Shown here in pieces: positions 211 through 11,672 of a DNA stretch of 13,540 nt. Source of the stretch: a virus; the IMG/VR virus record IMGVR_UViG_3300029305_004519, positions 1 through 13,540 of that record; one strand, written 5' to 3'. A model generated the notes under the pieces. That model saw nothing but the letters and a program-made list of their open reading frames with translations, had not been told where the DNA came from and did no database searches. Made by a program: the position numbers and the translations under genes. Numbering within the stretch: the stretch's first letter is position 1; the number at the start of each line of letters is the position of its first letter.

Positions 211-630
211 ATGGAATTAACAGCTAATGCTCTACAAACAGTAGAGGTTAATCAAAATGTGTTATTTACTGACACACCCGTATGCGGAAGTTGCTCCATT
301 CTCCATCGTGAAGGTAGTGGTCAGGTGACTCTTCGCGGAATCACCAACCAATGCCGCGCAAGATTTAAGGCATTCTTCAGTGGGAATATTGCTATTCCCG
401 CTGAAGGTACTGTTGAAGCAATCTCAATTGCTCTTGCGGTAAATGGAGAAGCGATAGCTTCTACAACAATGATTCAGACACCTGCGGCAGTGGAAGAATT
501 TGCTAATGTAGCTAGTGCAGTATATATCGATGTACCTGCTGGTTGCTGCATTACCGTAAGTGTAAGAAATACAAGCACTCAAGCTATTGATGTTCAAAAT
601 GCAAATTTAATCGTAGAAAGGGTGGCGTAA
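211..630 (+). CDS. 139-aa protein resembling the BclA (exosporium) C-terminal C1q/TNF-like domain. Possibly the distal tip of a fibre or adhesin.
   Basis: ORF with GGAGG at 195-199 upstream. C-terminus ...ITVSVRNTSTQAIDVQNANLIVERVA and central ...IALAVNGEAIAST... resemble my recollection of the BclA CTD (ending ...SIIIEKVA; ...TIQVNGVPVPGT...). Stop TAA. Confidence 0.5.
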   Translation: MELTANALQTVEVNQNVLFTDTPVCGSCSILHREGSGQVTLRGITNQCRARFKAFFSGNIAIPAEGTVEAISIALAVNGEAIASTTMIQTPAAVEEFANVASAVYIDVPAGCCITVSVRNTSTQAIDVQNANLIVERVA

Positions 631-631
631 T

Positions 632-1330
632 ATGGATAAGCTAAAACAGATGAAGGAATGCTTAGTTGGCATGGTTGAAGGCCAAGTTTATGGAAACATA
701 GACAAGGTTGACGCGCAAGAGCTAGGCGCCGCCGTGGATATGATTAAAGATTTAAGCGAAGCAATTTATTATTGCACTATTACTGAAGCTATGAAAGATG
801 AGGGCGAAGATAAAGAAAAAGAGGGTAAAGGTAAACATGGCATGATGTATTATCCTCGTACTACTCCTATGTATCATCTTCCTTATCCTATTGAAATGTA
901 TGATCCTCGTATGCGTGAAAGATATAATGATCCCATGTATGCGCAGGGCAATGGTGGATACAATTCAACAAGCACTTCTGGAGGCAATAATGCCCGTGGC
1001 GGCGGTACCCGTGGCTATCGTGAGGGAATGATGCCTATGGATTATTACCCAATGTATAACGATGGTACTATATATGAACAGGGAAATGGTCGTGGTAGCA
1101 ATCGTAATTATTCTGACATGAGAGACCCTCGTGAAGGTCGTAGCGGCGAGCGCCGTAAGATGTACATGGAAGGAAAAGGCATGAAAGATAAAACGCATCA
1201 AATGAAAGAGTTGGAAGCTTACATGCAAGAATTAACGCAAGATATGACTGAAATGATTGCTGACGCAACTCCTGAAGAAAAACAGATGTTGCAGCAAAAG
1301 ATCAGCACTCTTGCTACAAAAATTAAATAA
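632..1330 (+). CDS. Hypothetical 232-aa protein. Helical N- and C-terminal regions flank a low-complexity Met/Tyr/Pro/Gly/Arg/Asn-rich core with repeated PMY / MYD / YYP motifs.
   Basis: ORF with AGGGTGG RBS 7 nt upstream. Stop TAA overlaps the next ATG (TAATG at 1328-1332). Strong compositional bias is visible in the translation. Confidence 0.6.
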   Translation: MDKLKQMKECLVGMVEGQVYGNIDKVDAQELGAAVDMIKDLSEAIYYCTITEAMKDEGEDKEKEGKGKHGMMYYPRTTPMYHLPYPIEMYDPRMRERYNDPMYAQGNGGYNSTSTSGGNNARGGGTRGYREGMMPMDYYPMYNDGTIYEQGNGRGSNRNYSDMRDPREGRSGERRKMYMEGKGMKDKTHQMKELEAYMQELTQDMTEMIADATPEEKQMLQQKISTLATKIK

Positions 1331-1653
1331 TGTTTACTATTAATGGAGAACAATGGTGGATAGTTTTAGTAATGCCATACGACGTTGCACTTTTAATGCC
1401 AAACGGTAACTATGCTATTGGGGCGTGTAATGACTCTACTAAAACTATATATATCAGTAATGAACTTCATGGTGAGGCATTTGAGAAAGTATTGTGTCAT
1501 GAGTTAGTGCATGCCGCGATGTTTGCTTATGATGTCATGTTAGAGCACGATGAAGAGGAGCTAATTGCAGAAATAATTGCAACTTTTGGAGAAGAGATAA
1601 TTGATATTACTGATATAATGTTCGACAAAATAAGAAGAGGAAGATATTATTAA
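1330..1653 (+). CDS. Small (107 aa) putative zinc metallopeptidase-like protein with an HExxH motif (CHELVHAAMF). SprT/WLM-like minimal fold.
   Basis: HELVH motif preceded by ...IYISNEL...EAFEKVL. TAATG translational coupling with the upstream gene. Stop TAA at 1651-1653 lies inside the terminator hairpin. Confidence 0.55.
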   Translation: MFTINGEQWWIVLVMPYDVALLMPNGNYAIGACNDSTKTIYISNELHGEAFEKVLCHELVHAAMFAYDVMLEHDEEELIAEIIATFGEEIIDITDIMFDKIRRGRYY

Positions 1654-1669
1654 TATCTTCCTTTTTTTT
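1638..1669. terminator. Rho-independent terminator shared by the convergent + and − gene blocks.
   Basis: Perfect 12-bp inverted repeat AGGAAGATATTA (1638-1649) / TAATATCTTCCT (1651-1662), followed by T8 on the + strand (1662-1669). On the − strand the same hairpin is followed by a CTTCTTATTTTG tract. The ruvC TAA stop is at 1668-1670. Confidence 0.6.
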
Positions 1670-2174
1670 ACCATGCAGCTGCACTATAATCTTTTTCTTT
1701 TTTTGGATGTAAAAATGCATGACCAATACATACAGCATCGGCTGTGTCATCACTAGTTAAAGATAATCCATATGTTCGATTTGCAAATTCTATATCCTTT
1801 TGTTTTTTCTATTCACGCTTTGAGGCGCGCCCATCCTCAATGCCGCATGTTGAGCGCCAAGAGCTTGGATACACCATTTCAATCTAAACTTCAGGATGTT
1901 TATCATGCATTTCAATATGAATAAACGCCTAAAGATACATAAGTGCACGAAAGGTATTAGTATTTTTACTATGATCTGGAATAACTTCTTCCATCACTAT
2001 TTTTTCAATTTTCATTTGTTCAACTATTGTTAAAATGCCGTCAACCATTTTATGGATTCTTTTATATAAATCGGTTGATGATGCGGTAATACAATTGCAT
2101 ACAAGCAAGTCTTTATCTTTAAACACTGCAAAACCAGTTGCTTTAGTTGAGCAATCTAACGCTAATAAGTACAT
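1668..2174 (-). CDS. ruvC: RuvC-like Holliday junction resolvase, 168 codons, with three in-frame TAG sense codons (plus-strand CTA at 1929-1931, 1884-1886, 1809-1811). Terminates at TAA 1668-1670.
   Basis: N-terminus MYLLALDCSTKATGFAVF is the RuvC fold catalytic Asp motif. After TAG the same frame continues ...AFIHIEMHDKHPEV[TAG]IEMVYPSSWRSTCGMRMGRASKRE[TAG]KKQKDIEFANRTYGLSLTSDDTADAVCIGHAFLHPKKEKDYSAAAW. The C-terminal DDTADAVCIGH matches the conserved RuvC C-terminal acidic/His motif (E. coli DAADALAIAITH). RBS GGAGGTG lies 5 nt upstream of the ATG at 2174. The standard-code ORF track gives only the 81-aa N-terminal piece. Confidence 0.75.
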
Positions 2175-2197
2175 AAATGCACCTCCATTCTAGGTAC

Positions 2198-2226
2198 ATT
2201 ATACTTAAAAATTTTTATTAAGTCAA
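2198..2226 (-). promoter_or_regulatory. Sigma70-like promoter P(ruvC): TTGACT-17-TATAAT.
   Basis: − strand -35 TTGACT (plus 2221-2226 agtcaa), 17-nt spacer (2204-2220), -10 TATAAT (plus 2198-2203 attata). The -35 is contiguous with the T6 tail of the upstream terminator. RBS and ATG of ruvC follow about 20 nt downstream. Confidence 0.5.
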
Positions 2227-2227
2227 A

Positions 2228-2252
2228 AAAGAGCAGATTAATTCTGCTCTTT
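2228..2252 (-). terminator. Rho-independent terminator ending the dut-containing operon. The stop codon of the upstream small ORF sits in the loop.
   Basis: Stem AAAGAGCAGA (2228-2237) / TCTGCTCTTT (2243-2252), loop TTAAT. On the − strand it is followed by TTTTTT (2225-2230 as aaaaaa on plus) running into the TTGACT -35. Confidence 0.55.
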
Positions 2253-2468
2253 CTATTGTTCTTGTTCTTTTTGAAGTTCTGTATTATATTTTTGAAGTGC
2301 TGTGTTATATTCAAGCTAAGCTTGCATTTGCGCCTCGTTATAGAGATCTTTTAAAATGATTGCCGCTTGATAAATAGGCAAGTGTAAGTCATTAATACCA
2401 TAATTAATAACACGAGCGACTTCTTGTTTAATCTATTCAAAAGCAACCTACTCAGGCATAATAGGCAT
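2238..2468 (-). CDS. Hypothetical 76-aa Gln/Glu/Lys-rich, probably coiled-coil, protein containing four in-frame TAG sense codons (plus CTA at 2448-2450, 2433-2435, 2316-2318, 2253-2255). Ends at TAA 2238-2240.
   Basis: − strand ATG at 2468 preceded by GAGGTG (overlapping the dut TGA). Translation is MPIMPE[TAG]VAFE[TAG]IKQEVARVINYGINDLHLPIYQAAIILKDLYNEAQMQA[TAG]LEYNTALQKYNTELQKEQEQ[TAG]KEQN. There is no TAA/TGA over 77 codons in about 33% GC DNA (chance about 0.015). It has nucleotide-level tandem repeats (TTTTGAAGTnCTGTnTTATAT x2) that correspond to heptad-like NTxLQK repeats. It is invisible to standard-code ORF calling. Confidence 0.5.
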
Positions 2469-4197: not shown

Positions 4198-4679
4198 TAG
4201 CTAATCCTTTCCGCATATTGGTTTTGAGAAGCCAACTTTACGCCAAGTATTTTATCATAATGTGATTCGCTATTGGGGATATAGCGCCCAAATTTTATTA
4301 TGATGTTTGGAAATTGTTTTAATTCAATTAATTGATTTTCAATCTCATTTTTATTATAACCCGTATAAATAACAACATCGTCCATTATAGAATAACAATT
4401 GCGAAAAACAAAAAGGAAGTCGCGCAGGCCGTCGAATGTGTCAAACGGCTCTAATCCCTGGAAGCATACGGCGCGCGCAATTGGATTTGATTTGTAAAGA
4501 TTAATAATTGAGTCTATTGAGTATTCTTTAGTTGGGGCGGTAGCCAGTATGCTATTTTGACACACTGGCTGGCCGCACTCTTTATCACATTTAAAGCCTT
4601 TACAGATAGGAGATTCTATTGTCATACAAGGTGTTTTATAATTGACGAAATCTGTATCTATAATACCTTTCACTTTCAT
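4197..4679 (-). CDS. nrdG: Anaerobic ribonucleotide reductase activating protein (radical-SAM NrdG, short phage-type).
   Basis: Immediately downstream of nrdD with an ATGA overlap (4676-4679). ...VIYTGYNKNEIE resembles T4 NrdG ...VWTGYKLDEL. FQGLEPF resembles the GGDP(L) motif. N-terminal Cys cluster CKGFKCDKECGQPVC, with non-canonical spacing relative to CxxxCxxC. Stop TAA. Confidence 0.75.
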   Translation of the reverse strand: MKVKGIIDTDFVNYKTPCMTIESPICKGFKCDKECGQPVCQNSILATAPTKEYSIDSIINLYKSNPIARAVCFQGLEPFDTFDGLRDFLFVFRNCYSIMDDVVIYTGYNKNEIENQLIELKQFPNIIIKFGRYIPNSESHYDKILGVKLASQNQYAERIS

Positions 4680-6613
4680 TTATTAATTGGCTCCCATTTT
4701 CTCATTTTATATTCATTAGTACGCTCTTTAGACCATGTCTTAATAGGTGTATAAAATCCAACGATGCGAGTATATTCTGTTTCTATTGGTTTACCGCAGC
4801 AAGGACACGTTGTACCATAGAAAGCGTGATTATTCTCGCAGGCTTGAATCTTTGTGTTAAATGCAAAATAGGTTACTCCAGCATCAGAGATATAATTTAC
4901 CATATCCCAAGCTTTCTCGAAGCTATCAAAAGGAGAGTCGATATTCGCATGAAGAATAGATCCTCCATTGCAATAGCCATCAAACTCTGCGGCAATGCGT
5001 ACGCGTTCAGCAAGAGTTGTTTGAATGCCAAGAGGAATAAATTGGTTGCCATAAAGCGGAAGATCAAATACCTCTGCCTCGGGATAGAAGAATTTATCTT
5101 TTTTCATTAACTTAGCGGCAGCGCTTTCTCCTGGTATCTGCTCTGTATTTACATGATAATCAGCACCTGTTTCCAAAATAAAATCATCTGCCACTTGGCG
5201 CATGGTTTCAAAAATTTTCTTGCCAAGATTAGATGCTTGTTCTGTATAATAGACATTGCCAAATTCATCTGTACGAGTATAGCCAAAACGCTTCATTGTT
5301 TCATAAACTCCAATAAACCCAATGGTGTTATAAAGATGTTCAAAATCAACCAGCCCATTGGAAAAATTTGGTAAAAGCCCCTTCTCAACATTTCGCTTAA
5401 TAATATTTCTAACGCAGTGTAGAGCTTCAAGATTTAATCTTGTGCGATACTTAAGTTGTTCTAAATATTCTTCTTCGGTATCTACATCAAGCGCAAGGCG
5501 CGCAAGATTGATTGTAGACACCTTAACAGAGCCTACTTTAAGTGCTGTGCCGCCAATTGAGTTAAAGTAGCCTAAATCTTTAATGTCACTCTTCAAACGG
5601 CAACAGTTAGAAAGTGAAGTTACTGAATCGTCAATAAATAAATTACTGTCAGACCAGCGCATATTATGCTTTACGGCCCAGCGTGCAAATTCCTCATCCT
5701 GGAACTTACCTTCTTGTTTTAGAAGTGAGATTGAAAGCACTGGAAAAGTAAACATGTTCTTATCTCTAATATCCGCAACAGTCTCCATGTACCATTTTTG
5801 GAATTCAATAACTTCTTCCTCATAGTCAATCATAAATTCTCCATTCGGGAACTCACTGCCGCCAAATAGAGCTTCATAATAAGGTCTATCAAATACACTG
5901 GTATTCGTAAATGCAGATTGTGATCCATCACGAACATAGGGCTGATTCACTGCATAAACAAAGCGTTGGAAATTTTGGCGTGCGTATTTCTCTCCATTTC
6001 CGCTACTCTTGATACCAAGATAATCTTCTTCTATATCTTTATGCCAGAAGTAATACATATATGGAATAAGATTAGGAAGTCCGACCGCACCCGAAGAGCG
6101 ATTAGAAGCATAGCTAATAAACTCCTTAACAAAATCAACAAAAGTAGTTAAATGTTGAGCTGGCTCTGGATTAAACGGTGCGCCGATGAAGTACAATCCT
6201 TTTTCAGCTAGGTCTTTGAGATCATAAGCAAAACAATAATGTTTAAATGTTGAGGTATCAGCGTCATGCATATAAAGTTGACCAATCCACTCTGCGCGCA
6301 GCCATTCGTTTGCGCGTTTGAATCCAAAGTGTTTTTGCATTTCATAGTGAATTTTGTTATAAGCTAATAATTTTCTATGAGGTTTAGGCATTTCGTTTAA
6401 GAGAGTTACGATATCCTTTTTACTTACATTGCTATTGCCATCAATGCTTGCGTTAGCGACGACTTTAGTATCGATAAAGTTATCTATGAAATCGGTATAT
6501 GATAATTGATCATCATCAAAACCATTTAACCTAGCTAAATCAGTTCCGTACTCTCCCTAAAGTTTATTATAAGCAGTAACAAAATTCTTTTTTAATCTAA
6601 CATTAATTTCCAT
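4676..6613 (-). CDS. nrdD: Anaerobic (class III) ribonucleoside-triphosphate reductase NrdD, 645 codons, with one in-frame TAG sense codon at codon 19 (plus CTA 6557-6559). The track ORF 4676..6391 is only the portion after the first downstream Met.
   Basis: Strong RBS AAGGAGCAACAAAAGAATG at 6613. Frame reads MEINVRLKKNFVTAYNKL[TAG]GEYGTDLARLNGFDDDQLSYTDFIDNF...NEMPKPHRK... continuous with the 571-aa ORF. The ATG at 6391 has no SD. C-terminal Zn ribbon (C...CPCCGKP) and glycyl-radical motif TRIVGFY (resembling RVCGY). Stop TGA. Confidence 0.85.
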
Positions 6614-6818
6614 TCTTTTGTTGCTCCTTAATCCATTTGATAGCTTCAGTAAATTTATAAGTTACATTATCAACCTGTAAAATAGGTGCAGAACGGAACC
6701 CCATTGCCGCCATTACTGCTTGATCAGATACTGTGGTATATTGAATCTAAGCGGCATCTAATTTTGTTTTAAGAACTTTACATTGCGGGCAACCCGTTGA
6801 GTATAAAGTAATATTCAT
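6603..6818 (-). CDS. nrdH: NrdH / glutaredoxin-like redoxin (71 codons) with one in-frame TAG at codon 24 (plus CTA 6747-6749).
   Basis: RBS GGAGAAAATCAAATG. Translation is MNITLYSTGCPQCKVLKTKLDAA[TAG]IQYTTVSDQAVMAAMGFRSAPILQVDNVTYKFTEAIKWIKEQQKNGN. The CPQC active site lies N-terminal of the TAG and the cis-Pro region (SAPIL) C-terminal of it, so both halves of the thioredoxin fold need readthrough. It overlaps the nrdD start by 11 nt. Stop TAA. Confidence 0.7.
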
Positions 6819-7529: not shown

Positions 7530-7701
7530 TTTTATTTTCTCCTTTTGTAAATTTCCTTATCCAAGCTTTATATTCTTCTTGAGCTTGAGCGAGATGCTTT
7601 AAAATAATATCTCGCTCAATGCTGCTATCTGTTCCTACTAAAATATGATACATAAACTCATTTTCATAAGTTTCTTCAGTGTAATCTTTTTGAATCATCA
7701 T
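7519..7701 (-). CDS. Hypothetical protein (60 aa), translationally coupled to dnaE.
   Basis: Its ATG overlaps the dnaE TGA (ATGA at 7698-7701). Stop TAA 8 nt into the gmk-like start region. Confidence 0.5.
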   Translation of the reverse strand: MMIQKDYTEETYENEFMYHILVGTDSSIERDIILKHLAQAQEEYKAWIRKFTKGENKNEN

Positions 7702-10700
7702 TCTTCCATATCCTTCCTTTCATGGACTAACTCCATATCTCTTCCATCGTTGAAAAGTGAAATCTTATAGATTTGATGAGTAGGAGTATGCTTGTAGGTT
7801 TTGGTTACGAACTGGTCACCACGCCTATAGCCCGTTAAGAGTAGCATCGTTCCTCTTTTGAACCAGCCTTTTTCCGTCACTTTCTTGCTTCCATCATCTT
7901 GAAGCTCCGACAATTGTTTCTTGTATTGCGCGTAGTATTCCTTCGTAAACTTAACAGTTACAACACCGCTTGGAGTTAACAAAGTGATGGACGCTTTATT
8001 ATCATTCTTTGCGATTACTGTTCCGATAATCTTATAGGTTTTCCAAATTGGAATTTGTTGGCCATTACGCTTGAAATAATATTCTGCTTCCGGGTTTTCA
8101 GGCAATGCAAAGAAATTTGAAATACCGTACTTATGGGTATTAATATTTGCTAATTCATGCTCATGATAGTAAAAACATAACGATTCCATTTCCCAAGAGG
8201 ATAAAGAACCTTGAGCATATTTATTCCAAGTATCCATAAAGAGCTGCGTATTAAGTTCGCGCAAAACTTCGCTCTGATTCTCCTTTAACCAGTCTCTGGC
8301 GCCGTCCATTTGTTTTTGATAAATTCCATCCCAAGTCTTCTGTTGAATACAAGTTAAACCATTAATAACTTCTAATTTTTCAATATCAAAGTTATCTTTA
8401 TAGAATTTATAGCAAGGTTCGTCAAATACAAAGTATTTTCCAACTTTTGTATTTGCTTTGAGATATTTATTAAATTCAAATACTCTACGCTCAAAGTCAA
8501 GTGACTCTGGAACCAATCCACGCTGAATAAGCCCATTAAAGTTTTGTAAAGTCAGTTTGCTCTTAGGCTCACAAGCCTTTGATAAATAATATGCCATGAC
8601 AACAAAACGAGGATGAATATTTAACTCTTTACCCCATTCTGTCTCAAGTCTATCAAAGGCGCCCGCCTTAATTAGAGAAATCATCTGCGTTTTATTAAGC
8701 GGACAACGCGTCATAAAATCGGCGATATTAGCATAAGGTCTGCCGCTTATTATCTGCTCAATTACTTCGCTATTGATTCCGCTCAATGCTTTCATACCGA
8801 AGAGGATTTGATTATTCTCAATATCAGGCTTAAAGCTAAATTGAGATTTATTTATATCAACTAAAGATACATTAATACCTGCTGACAAAATATCACCAAG
8901 TGCCTTTGCTAGTTTGGTATAATCTGTCTGCTTATCTTTTGCTTCTTCATCGTCATCTTCATTATCATATCCTTCAAGCGAACCACTATTAACGATTAAG
9001 TTTGCAGTATTCCAATAAATAGGATTCCATCTTGTGGCGGCGTATGCTGTCTGAAAACCAATAAAGCTATAAGCAAGCGCATGGATAATGGAAAACGAGT
9101 ATCCCATTTGCGGGCCGATACCATGCTTCCAAACGTAATGACCCATACATGGGGAGCTAGCCTGGTCAAGAACTTGTTGTTGCAAAGCAGGGATCTTAGA
9201 CATTTGCTTCTTTCCGACGATTTTTCTGGCGGCGTTGGCGTCCGCAAGGCTAAACCCACAAATCTTAGGATCCATCAACATCTGCATCATCTGCTCCTGA
9301 GAAGGAGGAACACCATGAGACTTTAAGAAGTAAGGTTTTAATACTTCTTGTTCCTCTTTAGTAAGACCAAATTCATCCATTTCTTTATACCAAAGGTTGA
9401 TATTATTTTTGAAACGAACATACTTTTCCATTGGTGTTTCTTGACCTTTTTCATTAGTCATAAGTCGCATCAAACCATTGGCATCCGCCAGCTCAAGAAT
9501 ACTTGATGGACGAATCTTCTTAGCGGCTTGGGCGCCCACATCTGAATCAAATTGGAACAATCCTAAAACTTCAACATTTTGAATTGGCTTCCAATACTTT
9601 TCTTCTTCAATAGGTAATACATTTGGATGAAAGTATTTATCATATATTTGGCGCAAGGTCATATCTGACTCTAATTCACCAGTCTCTTGCAACATGTTAA
9701 TGGTTTCTACGAGTTTATCTTGTACTTCCGTTACGAGGAAGTCGTATTTTACCATTCCAAGCGCCTCACAAGTGTGAAGGTCAAACTGCGTTATAACCTC
9801 TCCTTTTGGAGTTCTCATGAAAGCGCCAAATTCATATGGATCTTCATCAAACAAAATAACTCCAGATGCGTGAGATGAGCGCTTGTTCTTAAGACCTTCA
9901 ATCGAAGTCATAATTTCCAAAAGCCCAGGATAATGATTTACTTCTCTAACGAACGAGGCCACTGGCTTACGATCTTTATCTGGGTTACCATTAACCACAT
10001 CATTGATACTCCACAAGAATCCTCTCTCTTGCGGAACAAGAGAAGTAAGATATTGCGCCATATCAACATCAATACCGTCTGGATATTCTTCACTACGATA
10101 GCCGCGGCAAGCGGTCAATATTGCGCTCTTTGTGGTTTCTGTACCAAAGGTTGCAATAAGTGTACAACCTAAGTTAGCGCGAGACAGTTCATCAATATCT
10201 GCATTAAACTTGGCGCCACGCTCTTCCTTAATCTTTTTAAGAATGTAAGGTCTTTTGCTTGGACATAGATCTAAGTCTATATCGCCGAGCTCGATACGTT
10301 CCTTATTAAGGTAGCGCCAGAAGGGAAGGTTCCACTCTATAGGATCAAGTTGGGTAACTCCAAGCAGATAATGGTTTAGACCTGAGCAACTTGAACCACG
10401 ACCGGCGCCAACCATAGAACCGCACTCCCAAAACAGATCAATATAATGCTGAAGTGTAACAGGATATGCGAACATATTTGTTTCCAGTTTTTCACTAATC
10501 GTTCTTTTGATATCCGCCTCTTCTTCAAGTCTATCCAAATATTGTGAATGATCATTAACCAAATCATAAAGAGTTGCTTGTTTTTTATCGCTCAAACTCT
10601 CCAAACATTGATTTACCCAATACCTCTCCACTTGATTATCAGAATTTAGCAATTCGGTTAAAGTTGGATAGTGTATCGCAATAAAGTATTCTTCTTCATT

Positions 10701-11672
10701 ACAAGGCTTTGTTAAATCAACCTTAGGATACTCTTTTACTTCAACTTTGGGAATTCTTTGCTTATGACGAATACTATAATTTTCAATTTTATCATAGATA
10801 GATAAGCTATTTTTAAATAAATTGCTAATATAATAATCATCATTGAAAGATTTTCGTAAGTTTTCAAAAATCTCTTCTTCAGTTTGGAGATAAGAATATT
10901 CATAGAAACTATCTACTTCTCTTTCTCCGCCTTTGGAATTAAGATATGCTTTATGAACATATCTATCTTCCTTTGAGAGATAGTGTGCGTCACTGCCAAT
11001 TACCATTGGAATTCGCATTGCATCAGAGATTTGACGCAACTTTTTATTAACTACTATCTGATCTCTTGAAGCGGCGGGCGCACACTCCAAATAAAAGTCA
11101 TCTCCAAAAAGATTCTTACACCAAGAGATAAAATCAACTATATGGTTATATTCTCGTTGTCTTGTTTCCATATCAAACATAGCTTCTGCATTTATCATAT
11201 TTGCAACTGCTGTTGATAACTCTCCACCGAGACAAGCAGTTGTTGCTATAAGTGAATCTGGATATTTATTTACGATTTCTTTAAGGTCTGACTTAAGAGT
11301 TACCACTCTCTCCATACCACGATCCCAATAGCTATTGAGCCAAGCGCGCGATGATAATTCTCTTAATGCGCGCCATCCGACGGAATTCTTAGCCAAAAGT
11401 ATAAAGTGATAATACTTTTGACTCATGTCTCTTGTATCGCAGAGATATATTTCATTTCCAAGAGCCACCTTAAAATCAGGATGCTCTTCTCTTATCTTTT
11501 CACCGTAGAAACTTGCGGCGGGCAGGTTACTTAAACATTCATGATCAGTAATACTTACACCGGCAAGTCCAATCTTCACGGCTTTATCAATTAAATCTTC
11601 TACACGGTTAATACTATCAAGCAGTCTTGTGTTTGAAGTATCAGTATGCGTGTGGATTTCAAATCGAAGCAT
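7698..11672 (-). CDS. dnaE: DNA polymerase III alpha subunit-like (C-family, DnaE-type) replicative polymerase, 1324 aa. It contains no TAG codon.
   Basis: N-terminal PHP domain (FEIHTHTDTSNTRLLDS...GLAGVSITDHECLSN). Length and C-terminal OB-fold-like region are typical of DnaE. RBS GAGAGGAGTAAAAGATG. Stop TGA. Confidence 0.85.
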   Translation of the reverse strand: MLRFEIHTHTDTSNTRLLDSINRVEDLIDKAVKIGLAGVSITDHECLSNLPAASFYGEKIREEHPDFKVALGNEIYLCDTRDMSQKYYHFILLAKNSVGWRALRELSSRAWLNSYWDRGMERVVTLKSDLKEIVNKYPDSLIATTACLGGELSTAVANMINAEAMFDMETRQREYNHIVDFISWCKNLFGDDFYLECAPAASRDQIVVNKKLRQISDAMRIPMVIGSDAHYLSKEDRYVHKAYLNSKGGEREVDSFYEYSYLQTEEEIFENLRKSFNDDYYISNLFKNSLSIYDKIENYSIRHKQRIPKVEVKEYPKVDLTKPCNEEEYFIAIHYPTLTELLNSDNQVERYWVNQCLESLSDKKQATLYDLVNDHSQYLDRLEEEADIKRTISEKLETNMFAYPVTLQHYIDLFWECGSMVGAGRGSSCSGLNHYLLGVTQLDPIEWNLPFWRYLNKERIELGDIDLDLCPSKRPYILKKIKEERGAKFNADIDELSRANLGCTLIATFGTETTKSAILTACRGYRSEEYPDGIDVDMAQYLTSLVPQERGFLWSINDVVNGNPDKDRKPVASFVREVNHYPGLLEIMTSIEGLKNKRSSHASGVILFDEDPYEFGAFMRTPKGEVITQFDLHTCEALGMVKYDFLVTEVQDKLVETINMLQETGELESDMTLRQIYDKYFHPNVLPIEEEKYWKPIQNVEVLGLFQFDSDVGAQAAKKIRPSSILELADANGLMRLMTNEKGQETPMEKYVRFKNNINLWYKEMDEFGLTKEEQEVLKPYFLKSHGVPPSQEQMMQMLMDPKICGFSLADANAARKIVGKKQMSKIPALQQQVLDQASSPCMGHYVWKHGIGPQMGYSFSIIHALAYSFIGFQTAYAATRWNPIYWNTANLIVNSGSLEGYDNEDDDEEAKDKQTDYTKLAKALGDILSAGINVSLVDINKSQFSFKPDIENNQILFGMKALSGINSEVIEQIISGRPYANIADFMTRCPLNKTQMISLIKAGAFDRLETEWGKELNIHPRFVVMAYYLSKACEPKSKLTLQNFNGLIQRGLVPESLDFERRVFEFNKYLKANTKVGKYFVFDEPCYKFYKDNFDIEKLEVINGLTCIQQKTWDGIYQKQMDGARDWLKENQSEVLRELNTQLFMDTWNKYAQGSLSSWEMESLCFYYHEHELANINTHKYGISNFFALPENPEAEYYFKRNGQQIPIWKTYKIIGTVIAKNDNKASITLLTPSGVVTVKFTKEYYAQYKKQLSELQDDGSKKVTEKGWFKRGTMLLLTGYRRGDQFVTKTYKHTPTHQIYKISLFNDGRDMELVHERKDMEE

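What the first reader, a model, noticed from the sequence alone, without database searches (positions are those of the whole stretch)
1668..2174. Full-length RuvC-like resolvase that standard-code annotation reduces to an 81-aa stub
Under code 11 only the N-terminal third (81 aa) is called, and the catalytic C-terminal half (…DDTADAVCIGH…) is lost. With TAG read as sense the gene is a complete 168-codon RuvC. It ends in the shared convergent terminator and has its own promoter. This is a concrete example of an annotation artefact, and it shows the resolvase is probably functional and requires suppression.
Basis: partly seen in the sequence, partly recalled or inferred. Interest (0 to 1): 0.55.

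Follow-up and report, generated by a model that had tools for sequence, protein, structure and literature searches.

The report
Amber-recoded phage RuvC-like resolvase gene
This is a complete, conserved phage DNA-junction-cutting enzyme gene in which the stop codon TAG is read as glutamine, a known phage trick, so standard annotation wrongly cuts it to an 81-residue stub; within this phage family the gene is unusually rich in such codons.

Summary
Confirmed. On the minus strand, 2174..1668 is a 168-codon frame ending in TAA. It has three in-frame TAGs, at codons 82, 97 and 122. Code 11 calls only 1929..2174 (81 aa, about half the protein, not a third).

- **Full-length gene:** the TAG-as-Gln translation matches phage RuvC-like resolvase profiles end to end. 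A 91%-identical proxy folds as RuvC. dN/dS is about 0.09 after the first TAG.
- **TAG means Gln:** relatives swap TAG and CAA at the same codons, and Gln is 10-fold enriched opposite TAG. No window gene ends in TAG.
- **Known kind:** this is code-15 recoding in a large phage with an SPbeta-like polymerase, from rumen/gut samples. A public protein collection already holds full-length relatives, so the artefact is real but understood.
- **Added here:** RuvC carries 63% of its Gln codons as TAG, against 0-5% in adjacent replication genes. It ranks first in 7 of 8 loci. TGA-recoded relatives put TGA at its Trp codons. The gene sits in a conserved terminator, consensus promoter and RBS cassette.
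- **Inference:** translation of the resolvase is held back until the code switch.
- **Gap:** no amber-suppressor tRNA was found in the window or in 77 kb of a 135-kb relative.

The parts
1668..2174 (-). RuvC-like Holliday-junction resolvase CDS: 168 codons plus a TAA stop, read with TAG as Gln
   Evidence: Translation. Full-length matches to PHROG 159/827/1770, Pfam PF07066 above its cut-off and NCBIfam RuvC, residues 2-157. RuvC fold of a 91%-identical proxy. dN/dS 0.12 in the N-terminal half and 0.09 in the C-terminal half.
1929..2174 (-). The 81-aa stub that code 11 calls (ATG to the first TAG)
   Evidence: the ORF listing. The same 81-aa gene call appears in JGI record L012.
1929..1931 (-). 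In-frame TAG, codon 82. It encodes the family-invariant Gln of the YLQA motif.
   Evidence: Q82 is invariant in alignment A1. The codon is CAA in L002 and TAG in 7 others. It aligns to the Gln of E. coli RuvC LGQA.
1884..1886 (-). In-frame TAG, codon 97
   Evidence: TAG in 6 of 8 close relatives, GAA or GGT in the others.
1809..1811 (-). In-frame TAG, codon 122
   Evidence: TAG in 7 of 8 close relatives.
2154..2156 (-). Codon D7, predicted catalytic Asp (strand beta-1)
   Evidence: Invariant. Aligned to E. coli RuvC D7 by hhalign.
1989..1991 (-). Codon E62, predicted catalytic Glu (VMEEV)
   Evidence: Invariant. Aligned to E. coli RuvC E66 (AIEQV) by hhalign.
1737..1748 (-). Codons D143-T-A-D146, predicted catalytic Asp pair. 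They lie downstream of all three TAGs.
   Evidence: Invariant D143 and D146. They sit at the N-terminus of helix 142-155 in the model. The correspondence to E. coli D138/D141 (DAADA) rests on the motif and my knowledge of RuvC.
2198..2226 (-). Sigma-70/sigma-A-type promoter-like site: TTGACT (2226..2221), 17 nt, TATAAT (2203..2198)
   Evidence: 11 of 12 consensus matches. The arrangement is conserved in 7 of 8 relatives. Function not measured.
2182..2186 (-). Ribosome-binding site GGAGG, 7 nt before the ATG
   Evidence: Read from the sequence. GGAGGTG is conserved in relatives.
2228..2252 (-). Hairpin plus T-run after the upstream small gene. It insulates the RuvC unit, and its T-run runs into the -35 box.
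   Evidence: The scan reports this inverted repeat (on the + strand) at these coordinates. Read on the gene's own strand it is followed by a run of T. Relatives keep the hairpin with different but still complementary stem sequences.
1638..1662 (.). Hairpin between the convergent genes (p107 stop at 1651-1653, RuvC stop at 1668-1670): a bidirectional terminator-like element
   Evidence: RNA fold -12.5 kcal/mol, z = -4.0, 0 of 200 shuffles as good. Conserved in 8 of 8 relatives. The T-run is clean on the + strand and interrupted (CTTCTTATTTT) on the RuvC strand.
2238..2468 (-). Upstream small ORF (76 aa) with 4 in-frame TAGs. Context evidence that TAG is a sense codon.
   Evidence: No family match.
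4676..6613 (-). NrdD (645 aa) with one in-frame TAG at codon 19. Context evidence that TAG is a sense codon.
   Evidence: The relative L006 has a standard Gln codon at that position (YNKLQGEYG). The JGI record calls only 571 aa.
6603..6818 (-). NrdH-like glutaredoxin (71 aa) with one in-frame TAG. Context evidence.
   Evidence: Glutaredoxin Pfam hit on the orthologue.

Best explanation
The locus is an intact gene for a phage RuvC-like Holliday-junction / branched-DNA endonuclease of the lactococcal-phage bIL67 type. It belongs to a roughly 100-140 kb phage of rumen/gut Firmicutes whose replication polymerase resembles that of Bacillus phage SPbeta.

The phage uses genetic code 15, in which TAG is read as glutamine. 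The three in-frame TAGs are sense codons, and one of them encodes a family-invariant Gln.

Without TAG decoding the ribosome would stop at codon 82 and make a fragment lacking two of the four catalytic acidic residues. Active enzyme therefore needs TAG decoding.

Proposed mechanism (inferred):
- The gene is an insulated transcription unit with a near-consensus host-type promoter and a strong ribosome-binding site.
- Its neighbours, the replication and nucleotide-metabolism genes, are written almost free of TAG and can be translated by the unmodified host.
- RuvC, like the tail genes and the homing endonucleases, is heavily written in TAG.
- Translation of the debranching nuclease is therefore held back until the infected cell starts decoding TAG, which is when concatemers must be debranched for packaging.

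Shown: gene integrity, RuvC fold, TAG read as Gln, and gene-specific TAG enrichment. Inferred: the timing role, promoter activity, and the identity of the decoder.
For: **Integrity and family**
- PHROG 159/827/1770 match residues 1-159 (E 1e-19 to 3e-13), and the C-terminal 86 aa alone match (E 3e-5).
- PF07066 scores 23.9 bits against a cut-off of 22.1.
- NCBIfam RuvC NF000711 aligns residues 2-157.
- The AlphaFold model of the 91%-identical P0003 has pLDDT 91.7.
- Foldseek top hits are RuvC structures and phage bIL67 RuvC 4ktw (TM 0.77-0.80, about 160 columns).
- D7, E62, D143 and D146 are invariant.
- dN/dS is 0.12 before and 0.09 after codon 82.

**TAG read as Gln**
- TAG and CAA interchange at codons 53, 58, 82 and 125 among relatives.
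- Across all genes of 8 loci, the residue opposite TAG is Gln in 153 of 417 cases (37%, against a 3.5% background).
- Four window genes carry in-frame TAGs.
- None of the 20 window genes ends at TAG. A TGA-recoded relative does use TAG as a stop.

**Gene-specific recoding**
- In the TAG-recoded relatives, RuvC has 78 TAG out of 123 Gln codons. The comparison genes are DnaE 1/562, Gmk 1/73, NrdD 14/302, NrdG 0/101 and dUTPase 2/91.
- RuvC has the highest TAG fraction of all genes with at least 4 Gln codons in 7 of 8 loci.
- There are 29 different TAG columns among 29 distinct orthologues.
- TGA-recoded relatives have 12 TGA out of 16 Trp codons in RuvC, against 4/76 in DnaE.
- Tail genes are similarly recoded: the tape measure has 82 TAG out of 184 Gln codons.

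**Cassette**
- The terminator, TTGACT-17-TATAAT promoter and GGAGG are conserved in 7 of 8 relatives.

**Literature**
- The model of early standard-code genes and late recoded genes, including recoded homing endonucleases, is published for such phages (bioRxiv 10.1101/2021.08.26.457843).
Against: - **No suppressor found:** there is no amber-suppressor tRNA in the window or in 77 kb (50,298-127,560) of a closely related 135-kb contig. None appeared in about 3.8 Mb of related loci. The same program does find the phAss-1 suppressors. The decoder is therefore unknown.
- **No expression data:** promoter, terminator and timing are inferred.
- **Below bacterial RuvC thresholds:** scores fall below the bacterial RuvC cut-offs.
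- **Non-independent counts:** the enrichment counts come from related genomes, and the number of Gln codons per gene is small (4-8).
- **Alternative to timing:** TAG richness could simply mark a low-abundance late protein rather than selection for timing.
- **An awkward relative:** L088 encodes the catalytic Glu position with TAG, which fits poorly with TAG read as Gln there.
Confidence: 0.85

Rival explanations
1. TAG is a sense codon and the gene is functional, but the TAG richness of RuvC has no regulatory meaning. It is a late or low-abundance gene, so TAG, which may be decoded inefficiently, drifts in freely. Early genes and highly expressed genes purge it.
For: - Other low-copy late proteins are equally TAG-rich: tape measure 82/184, tail proteins 13/22 and 11/19.
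- A capsid-like 350-aa protein has 0 TAG.
- Homing endonucleases, which are selfish and expressed at low levels, are also TAG-rich.
- TAG positions turn over fast, with 29 distinct columns.
Against: - RuvC ranks first in TAG fraction in 7 of 8 loci, above the tail genes.
- It is the only core gene so recoded inside the standard-code block.
- The same gene is hit in both TAG-recoded and TGA-recoded lineages.
- An invariant Gln is kept as TAG in most relatives.
Confidence: 0.3
2. No dedicated suppressor exists. Low-level natural readthrough of TAG by host tRNAs keeps a toxic nuclease at trace levels throughout infection, so the TAGs attenuate expression rather than time it.
For: No suppressor tRNA was found in 57% of a closely related genome. 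About 60% of TAG-recoded phage genomes in the published survey lack a detectable suppressor.
Against: - Three to six TAGs per gene, and 82 in the tape measure, would give essentially no full-length product by natural readthrough.
- Essential structural genes are recoded too.
- A TGA-recoded relative carries a matching tRNA(TCA).
- 58 kb of the related genome was not searched.
Confidence: 0.07
3. The frame is a decaying pseudogene of a RuvC-like gene with three nonsense mutations. Only the 81-aa fragment, or nothing, is made.
For: Under the standard code the frame is interrupted three times. Open TAA/TGA-free frames of this size arise by chance in 17% of shuffles.
Against: - All interruptions are TAG, none TAA or TGA.
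- dN/dS is 0.09 downstream of the first TAG.
- The catalytic residues are invariant.
- More than 100 full-length homologues exist.
- TAG and CAA swap at the same codons in relatives.
- The first TAG is at codon 26 in some relatives, so no conserved truncated product exists.
Confidence: 0.02
4. TAG encodes something other than Gln, such as pyrrolysine or Glu, supplied by the host.
For: ARAGORN labels CTA-anticodon tRNAs as Pyl. Glu is the second most common residue opposite TAG (14%, 1.9-fold enrichment). In L088 and L097, TAG sits at invariant Glu columns.
Against: - Gln is enriched 10.5-fold opposite TAG, and no other residue exceeds 2-fold.
- The invariant Gln82 is encoded by TAG.
- Early genes avoid TAG, which argues against a host that decodes it.
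Confidence: 0.03

Closest known systems
Lactococcus phage bIL67 RuvC-like resolvase (PDB 4KTW; Pfam PF07066 'Lactococcus phage M3 protein' / PHROG 159)
   Same: Same size class (about 160-170 aa) and the same RNase-H-like RuvC fold: TM 0.77-0.80, rmsd 2.3 A, 22% identity. The profile match is above the Pfam cut-off. It has an acidic catalytic set and is encoded by a phage of Firmicutes.
   Different: Only about 22% identical. The gene here is written with 3 in-frame TAGs and sits in a 100-140 kb phage with an SPbeta-like replication module. Activity is untested.
Bacterial RuvC (E. coli 1HJR; TIGR00228 / NF000711 / PF02075)
   Same: Same fold. D7 and E62 align to D7 and E66. There is a full-length but weak profile alignment. 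The DxxD motif is in the last catalytic helix.
   Different: Scores are far below the equivalog cut-offs: 22.9 against 163 bits, 21.7 against 100.65 bits, and 20.6 against 22.2 bits for Pfam. It is a phage enzyme with no adjacent RuvAB.
Stop-codon-recoded (code 15, TAG read as Gln) gut and rumen phages, especially the 'Agate' clade of Borges et al. (bioRxiv 10.1101/2021.08.26.457843) and phAss-1 (PMC10607447)
   Same: - In-frame TAG read as Gln.
- Replication genes in standard code, with tail genes and homing endonucleases recoded.
- Genome size about 100-140 kb.
- Close relatives use standard, TAG-recoded or TGA-recoded codes.
- Firmicutes/Clostridia hosts are predicted.

   Different: - Neither paper mentions a resolvase among recoded genes.
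- phAss-1 is only distantly related: DnaE 36% identical, RuvC-like 23% identical and annotated without interruption.
- Membership of the Agate clade was not tested phylogenetically.
- No suppressor tRNA has been found here yet.
Phage T4 endonuclease VII (gene 49) temporal control (from my own knowledge, not checked here)
   Same: A phage debranching nuclease whose translation from early transcripts is blocked, in T4 by an RNA hairpin over the start region, so that the enzyme appears late, before packaging. The logic is the same as the gating proposed here.
   Different: The protein fold is unrelated, and the mechanism differs: mRNA structure in T4, in-frame stop codons plus a code switch here.

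Membership tests
Phage RuvC-like resolvase (PF07066 / PHROG 159, bIL67 type) | Sequence profile match above the curated threshold over the full length | tested here: met
   PF07066 scores 23.9 bits against a cut-off of 22.1, covering residues 3-150. PHROG 159 E 1e-19, residues 1-159. 29 of 38 family members hit PF07066 and 36 of 38 hit PF02075 at E<0.01.
Phage RuvC-like resolvase (PF07066 / PHROG 159, bIL67 type) | Complete RNase-H-like RuvC fold | tested here: met
   The model of the 91%-identical, same-length P0003 has pLDDT 91.7. Foldseek against the PDB gives RuvC and bIL67 RuvC as top hits, TM 0.71-0.82 over 158-174 columns. The window protein itself could not be submitted.
Phage RuvC-like resolvase (PF07066 / PHROG 159, bIL67 type) | Four catalytic acidic residues | tested here: met
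   D7, E62, D143 and D146 are invariant in 38 sequences. D7 and E62 align to E. coli D7 and E66. D143 and D146 are assigned by the DxxD motif at the start of the last long helix and by knowledge of RuvC. Their 3D clustering was not measured.
Phage RuvC-like resolvase (PF07066 / PHROG 159, bIL67 type) | Mg-dependent cleavage of Holliday junctions or branched DNA | not testable with these tools
   Needs a biochemical assay.
Bacterial RuvC equivalog (TIGR00228, NF000711, PF02075) | Score at or above the curated cut-off | tested here: not met
   NF000711 22.9 against 163 bits; TIGR00228 21.7 against 100.65 bits; PF02075 20.6 against 22.2 bits. It works like RuvC but is not a member of the bacterial equivalog.
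Genetic code 15 (TAG read as Gln) phage | In-frame TAG in several conserved genes, with homology continuing past them | tested here: met
   RuvC has 3, NrdD 1, the NrdH-like gene 1 and the small ORF 4. The same holds in 8 or more relatives.
Genetic code 15 (TAG read as Gln) phage | TAG aligns with Gln in homologues | tested here: met
   Gln in 153 of 417 TAG-aligned positions, a 10.5-fold enrichment. TAG and CAA interchange. The invariant Q82 is encoded by TAG.
Genetic code 15 (TAG read as Gln) phage | TAG not used as a terminator | tested here: met
   The 16 TAG-free window genes end in TAA or TGA, and the 4 TAG-containing genes continue by homology. A TGA-recoded relative uses TAG as a stop in 6 genes.
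Genetic code 15 (TAG read as Gln) phage | Phage-encoded suppressor tRNA(CUA), often with RF2 | tested here: inconclusive
   None in the window or in 77 of 135 kb of a close relative. Rfam found nothing either. The positive control worked. A TGA-recoded relative has tRNA(TCA). RF2 was not searched. Only about 40% of published TAG-recoded genomes have a detectable suppressor.
'Agate' clade of recoded phages (Borges et al.) | Phylogenetic placement by large terminase | not tested
   No terminase lies in the window or was analysed. The resemblance rests on genome size, a mix of three codes among close relatives, standard-code replication genes and recoded homing endonucleases.

The most novel reading that the evidence does not exclude
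The resolvase is a specifically selected target of the phage's code switch. The gene is transcribed from a host-type consensus promoter, but its translation is locked by in-frame stop codons until suppression begins. This acts as a translational timer that keeps a debranching nuclease away from replication intermediates. The same solution would have been reached repeatedly, with 29 different TAG positions and both amber (TAG to Gln) and opal (TGA to Trp) versions in sister lineages. That would extend the 'recoding controls lysis timing' model to control of DNA processing.
Probability: 0.45. Interest if true: 0.6.

Novelty: new member of a known kind. Interest (0 to 1): 0.42.

Why it matters
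**Practical.** This is a clean, checkable case where standard-code annotation destroys a core enzyme. A public JGI record of the same phage carries the 81-aa stub and an N-truncated NrdD. It argues for code-aware gene calling on rumen and gut viromes.

**Biological.** If the gene-specific enrichment is selected, it names a new class of function that phages place under the stop-codon 'late switch': DNA debranching before packaging, besides the structural, lysis and homing-endonuclease genes already reported.

**Experimental.** It gives a small, easily assayed protein for testing that model. Swap TAG for CAA and look for premature cleavage or toxicity.

Tried and rejected
- **Near-identical annotated phage:** megablast of the whole window against 50,697 phage records found nothing.
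- **phAss-1 as the same group:** rejected. DnaE is 36% identical and the RuvC-like gene 23%.
- **Window's own contig:** Lookups with TAG-free neighbouring proteins returned only short contigs.
- **Sequence-only PDB search:** it does not reach the C-terminal half, and hhalign to E. coli RuvC stops at residue 95. Only the fold search covers it.
- **Suppressor tRNA hunt:** I ran ARAGORN on the window and on 297 related loci, and walked a 135-kb relative from 50.3 to 127.6 kb. That used all viral, metagenome and genome scans plus two contig lookups. No tRNA(CUA) was found. Rfam found no RNA family in 97 kb.
- **Prophage and host search in species genomes:** one hit only, a 130-kb contig binned with a sheep-rumen Clostridia MAG. 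It is probably the phage itself, so it is weak host evidence.
- **Pseudogene, TGA-sense and TAA-sense readings of the window:** rejected.
- **Frame openness as evidence:** rejected as weak.
Full report
**1. The observation**

The finding lies on the minus strand. Reading 2174 down to 1668 gives 168 codons and a TAA stop. There are exactly three internal stops, all TAG, at codons 82, 97 and 122. The mechanical ORF list under code 11 gives 1929..2174, 81 aa. That stub is 48% of the protein, not a third.

Reading TAG as sense also extends or repairs three other genes in the window:
- a 76-aa ORF at 2238-2468, with 4 TAGs;
- NrdD at 4676-6613, with a TAG at codon 19;
- an NrdH-like glutaredoxin at 6603-6818, with 1 TAG.

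A TAA/TGA-free frame of this length with three TAGs is not rare by chance: 52 of 300 dinucleotide shuffles had at least one. The window also contains one obviously spurious example, antisense to 632-1330. The case therefore has to rest on homology and conservation.

**2. Is it a full-length RuvC-like gene?**

With TAG read as Gln, the protein matches several profiles over its full length:
- Three PHROG families annotated as (RuvC-like) Holliday junction resolvase match residues 1-159 (E 1e-19, 3e-18, 3e-13).
- The 86 residues after the first TAG match the same three families on their own (E 3e-5 to 6e-4).
- Pfam PF07066 (Lactococcus phage M3 protein) is above its gathering score, covering residues 3-150. 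PF02075 (RuvC) is just below its score.
- NCBIfam's bacterial RuvC model aligns residues 2-157, but far below the equivalog cut-off.

tblastn finds annotated RuvC-like resolvases in 88 phage genomes, each covering at least 80% of the query.

I therefore modelled P0003, a database homologue of identical length and 91% identity, with 36 relatives as the alignment. The model has pLDDT 91.7 and pTM 0.87. Foldseek against the PDB returns RuvC from four bacteria and the lactococcal phage bIL67 RuvC (4ktw: TM 0.77/0.80, rmsd 2.3 A) as top hits over about 160 columns.

D7, E62, D143 and D146 are invariant in 38 family members. hhalign places D7 and E62 on E. coli D7 and E66. D143 and D146 form the DxxD motif at the start of the last long helix, and both lie downstream of all three TAGs.

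**3. Is TAG really decoded, and as what?**

IMG/VR, ENA and Logan contigs of 67-135 kb carry orthologues at 62-94% identity. Every one has 3-6 in-frame TAGs, and never TAA or TGA.

- **Codon interchange:** TAG positions differ between relatives and interchange with CAA. Codon 82 is TAG in seven relatives and CAA in one. Codons 53 and 125 are CAA in the window and TAG elsewhere.
- **Invariant Gln:** Gln82 is invariant in the family.
- **Selection:** Nei-Gojobori dN/dS is 0.12 upstream and 0.09 downstream of codon 82. The part that the standard code discards is under purifying selection at least as strong as the part it keeps.
- **Residue opposite TAG:** over all genes of eight loci, it is Gln in 37% of cases against a 3.5% background (10.5-fold). 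No other amino acid exceeds 2-fold.
- **Stop usage:** none of the 20 window genes terminates at TAG. A TGA-recoded relative does use TAG as a stop.

This is genetic code 15 (TAG read as Gln), a known property of many gut and rumen phages. The pseudogene reading is excluded.

**4. The annotation artefact**

A JGI metagenome record of the same phage, L012 (Ga0224413_10073911), has identical neighbouring proteins. It calls exactly the 81-aa stub, a 571-aa N-truncated NrdD and a string of 33-45-aa fragments in the adjacent structural gene.

The large protein collection, in contrast, already holds more than 100 full-length 168-169-aa homologues. Their loci do not translate to them under code 11, so a code-aware gene caller was used. 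The artefact is real in some public records and already solved in others.

**5. What phage is this?**

The window is a replication and nucleotide-metabolism block on the minus strand, meeting three small plus-strand genes head-on at the RuvC end:

| Gene | Position or note |
|---|---|
| Helicase-like fragment | minus strand, cut by the high-coordinate end of the window |
| DnaE-type polymerase | 7698-11672 |
| Guanylate kinase | minus strand |
| NrdH-like glutaredoxin | 6603-6818 |
| NrdD | 4676-6613 |
| NrdG | minus strand |
| dUTPase | minus strand |
| Small ORF | 2238-2468 |
| RuvC-like resolvase | 1668-2174 |

- **Polymerase:** it is 39.6% identical over its full length to YorL of Bacillus phage SPbeta. 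Relatives carry YorF and YorH domains.
- **Family size:** IMG/VR holds 169 contigs with this polymerase, the long ones 100-144 kb.
- **Host evidence:** the only hit in species genomes is a 130-kb contig binned with a sheep-rumen Clostridia MAG. This is weak.
- **phAss-1:** it is only distantly related.
- **Three codes in one family:** the family contains standard-code, TAG-recoded and TGA-recoded members. This matches the description of the 'Agate' clade. I did not test that placement.

**6. Gene-specific recoding**

Within the TAG-recoded members, the fraction of Gln codons written as TAG differs sharply between RuvC and its replication-block neighbours:

| Gene | TAG / Gln codons | Fraction |
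|---|---|---|
| RuvC | 78 / 123 | 63% |
| DnaE | 1 / 562 | 0.2% |
| Gmk | 1 / 73 | 1% |
| NrdD | 14 / 302 | 5% |
| NrdG | 0 / 101 | 0% |
| dUTPase | 2 / 91 | 2% |

- In the window itself DnaE has 0 TAG among 54 Gln codons, and RuvC has 3 of 5.
- RuvC has the highest TAG fraction of all genes with at least four Gln codons in 7 of 8 loci, and ranks second in the eighth. It is above the tail genes.
- Tail genes are heavily recoded: tape measure 82/184, others 13/22 and 11/19. So are homing endonucleases inserted in early genes, with 5-7 TAGs each.
- Among 29 distinct RuvC orthologues there are 29 different TAG columns, so TAGs were gained many times.
- In four TGA-recoded relatives, RuvC carries TGA at 12 of 16 Trp codons, while DnaE has 4 of 76.
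- Standard-code relatives have neither.

The published survey lists structural genes, lysis genes and a homing endonuclease as preferentially recoded. It does not mention a resolvase, and neither does the phAss-1 paper.

Caveats: the genomes are related, the counts per gene are small, and I did not apply a phylogenetic correction.

**7. The expression cassette**

Upstream of the ATG there are, in order:
- a hairpin with a T-run (2228-2252) ending the small gene;
- TTGACT (2226-2221), a 17-nt spacer, then TATAAT (2203-2198), 11 of 12 consensus matches;
- GGAGG (2186-2182).

The whole arrangement recurs in 7 of 8 relatives, with different but still complementary stem sequences in the hairpin. 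In the eighth relative, a GIY-YIG endonuclease gene has replaced it.

Downstream, a hairpin (1638-1662; -12.5 kcal/mol, z = -4.0) lies between the two convergent stop codons and is conserved in all eight. Its T-run is clean for the plus-strand gene and interrupted for RuvC. 'Shared convergent terminator' is therefore reasonable, but stronger for the neighbour.

**8. Mechanism**

*Shown:* an intact, selected RuvC-fold gene whose catalytic C-terminal half can only be made if TAG is decoded as Gln. It sits among TAG-free early genes and is as TAG-rich as the tail genes.

*Inferred:* the host can transcribe it from a consensus promoter, but translation stops at codon 82 (codon 26 in some relatives) until the infected cell decodes TAG. 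This delays a nuclease that would otherwise cut replication and recombination intermediates. It then becomes available when concatemers must be debranched for packaging.

This is the published code-switch model applied to a DNA-processing enzyme. It parallels the translational delay of T4 endonuclease VII (my own knowledge, not checked here). The main rival is that TAG richness merely reflects a low-abundance late gene.

**9. The gap**

I could not find the decoder. ARAGORN finds no tRNA in the window and no tRNA(CUA) anywhere in about 3.8 Mb of related loci. That includes a walk over 77 kb (57%) of a 135-kb close relative. Rfam finds nothing in 97 kb. The program does detect the phAss-1 suppressors.

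A TGA-recoded relative (L246) has a tRNA array with a tRNA(TCA) about 9 kb upstream of its gyrB-like gene. Only about 40% of published TAG-recoded genomes have a detectable suppressor.

**10. Verdict**

The phenomenon is a known kind, code-15 phage recoding and its annotation artefact, so the base finding is ordinary.

The added result is new to the two recoding papers I read here, and a literature search turned up no paper linking resolvases to recoding. RuvC is the one core gene in the standard-code block that is heavily and repeatedly recoded, in both amber and opal lineages, behind a conserved host-type promoter. It is modest in scope, and it is testable.

Noticed in passing
window 4676-6613 (-): NrdD has a single in-frame TAG at codon 19 (YNKL-TAG-GEYG; the relative L006 has a standard Gln codon there). 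Code 11 therefore yields an N-truncated 571-aa protein starting from an internal ATG. The JGI record L012 carries that truncated call.
   Followed up: partly
window 2238-2468 (-) and 6603-6818 (-): A 76-aa ORF of unknown function, directly upstream of RuvC, has 4 TAGs among 13 Gln codons. Relatives have 0-1 there. The NrdH-like glutaredoxin has 1 TAG, at a position where relatives have Gly.
   Followed up: partly
window 7698-11672 (-); relatives L006 1-3105, L004/L005 1-2562, L007 3011-6232, L011 1794-4765: The window's DnaE-type polymerase (1324 aa, 39.6% identical to SPbeta YorL) is uninterrupted and has 0 TAG among 54 Gln codons. In relatives, DnaE and NrdD are split by GIY-YIG, HNH or TnsA-like endonuclease genes, and several of those inserted genes are themselves TAG-rich (up to 7 TAGs).
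   Followed up: partly
L056, L060, L061, L065 (RuvC orthologues); L246 5-2105: Sister lineages of the same phage family are TGA-recoded, with TGA at Trp positions in RuvC. One 140-kb relative has a tRNA array containing a tRNA with anticodon TCA (an opal suppressor), next to tRNA-Trp(CCA) and tRNA-Gln(TTG).
   Followed up: partly
L088 and L097 (RuvC orthologues, about 40% identical): In L088 the invariant catalytic Glu column (VMEEV) is written TAG-TAG. In L097 it is E-TAG. If TAG is Gln there, the L088 enzyme would carry E-to-Q at a catalytic residue. Unexplained: it could be a sequencing error, a dead copy, or a different decoding.
   Followed up: no
window 1330-1653 (+), 632-1330 (+), 211-630 (+): Three conserved plus-strand genes converge on RuvC:
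- a 107-aa protein with an HELVH (HExxH) metalloprotease-like motif (phrog_1233/87);
- a 232-aa low-complexity, Gly/Met/Tyr-rich protein with no family hit;
- a 139-aa protein of phrog_20016 (unknown function).

They have few or no TAGs, although the tail-like genes beyond them in relatives are TAG-rich.
   Followed up: partly
L107 1091-10519; L164 2095-3147: In the 135-kb relative the tape measure is 3142 aa, with 82 TAGs among 184 Gln codons. A capsid-like 350-aa protein has 0 of 11. This suggests TAG is avoided in the most highly expressed late genes.
   Followed up: no
window 783-1301 (-): A 173-codon TAA/TGA-free frame with 6 TAGs lies antisense to the low-complexity gene at 632-1330. It is a spurious 'recoded ORF', which shows that frame openness alone is unreliable here.
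   Followed up: yes
L295 6921-9049; L296 7494-7883: In relatives, a holin (and in L295 also a large endolysin with GH25, CHAP and PG-binding domains) lies just upstream of the gyrB/gyrA-like topoisomerase genes. That places the lysis genes next to the early replication block.
   Followed up: no
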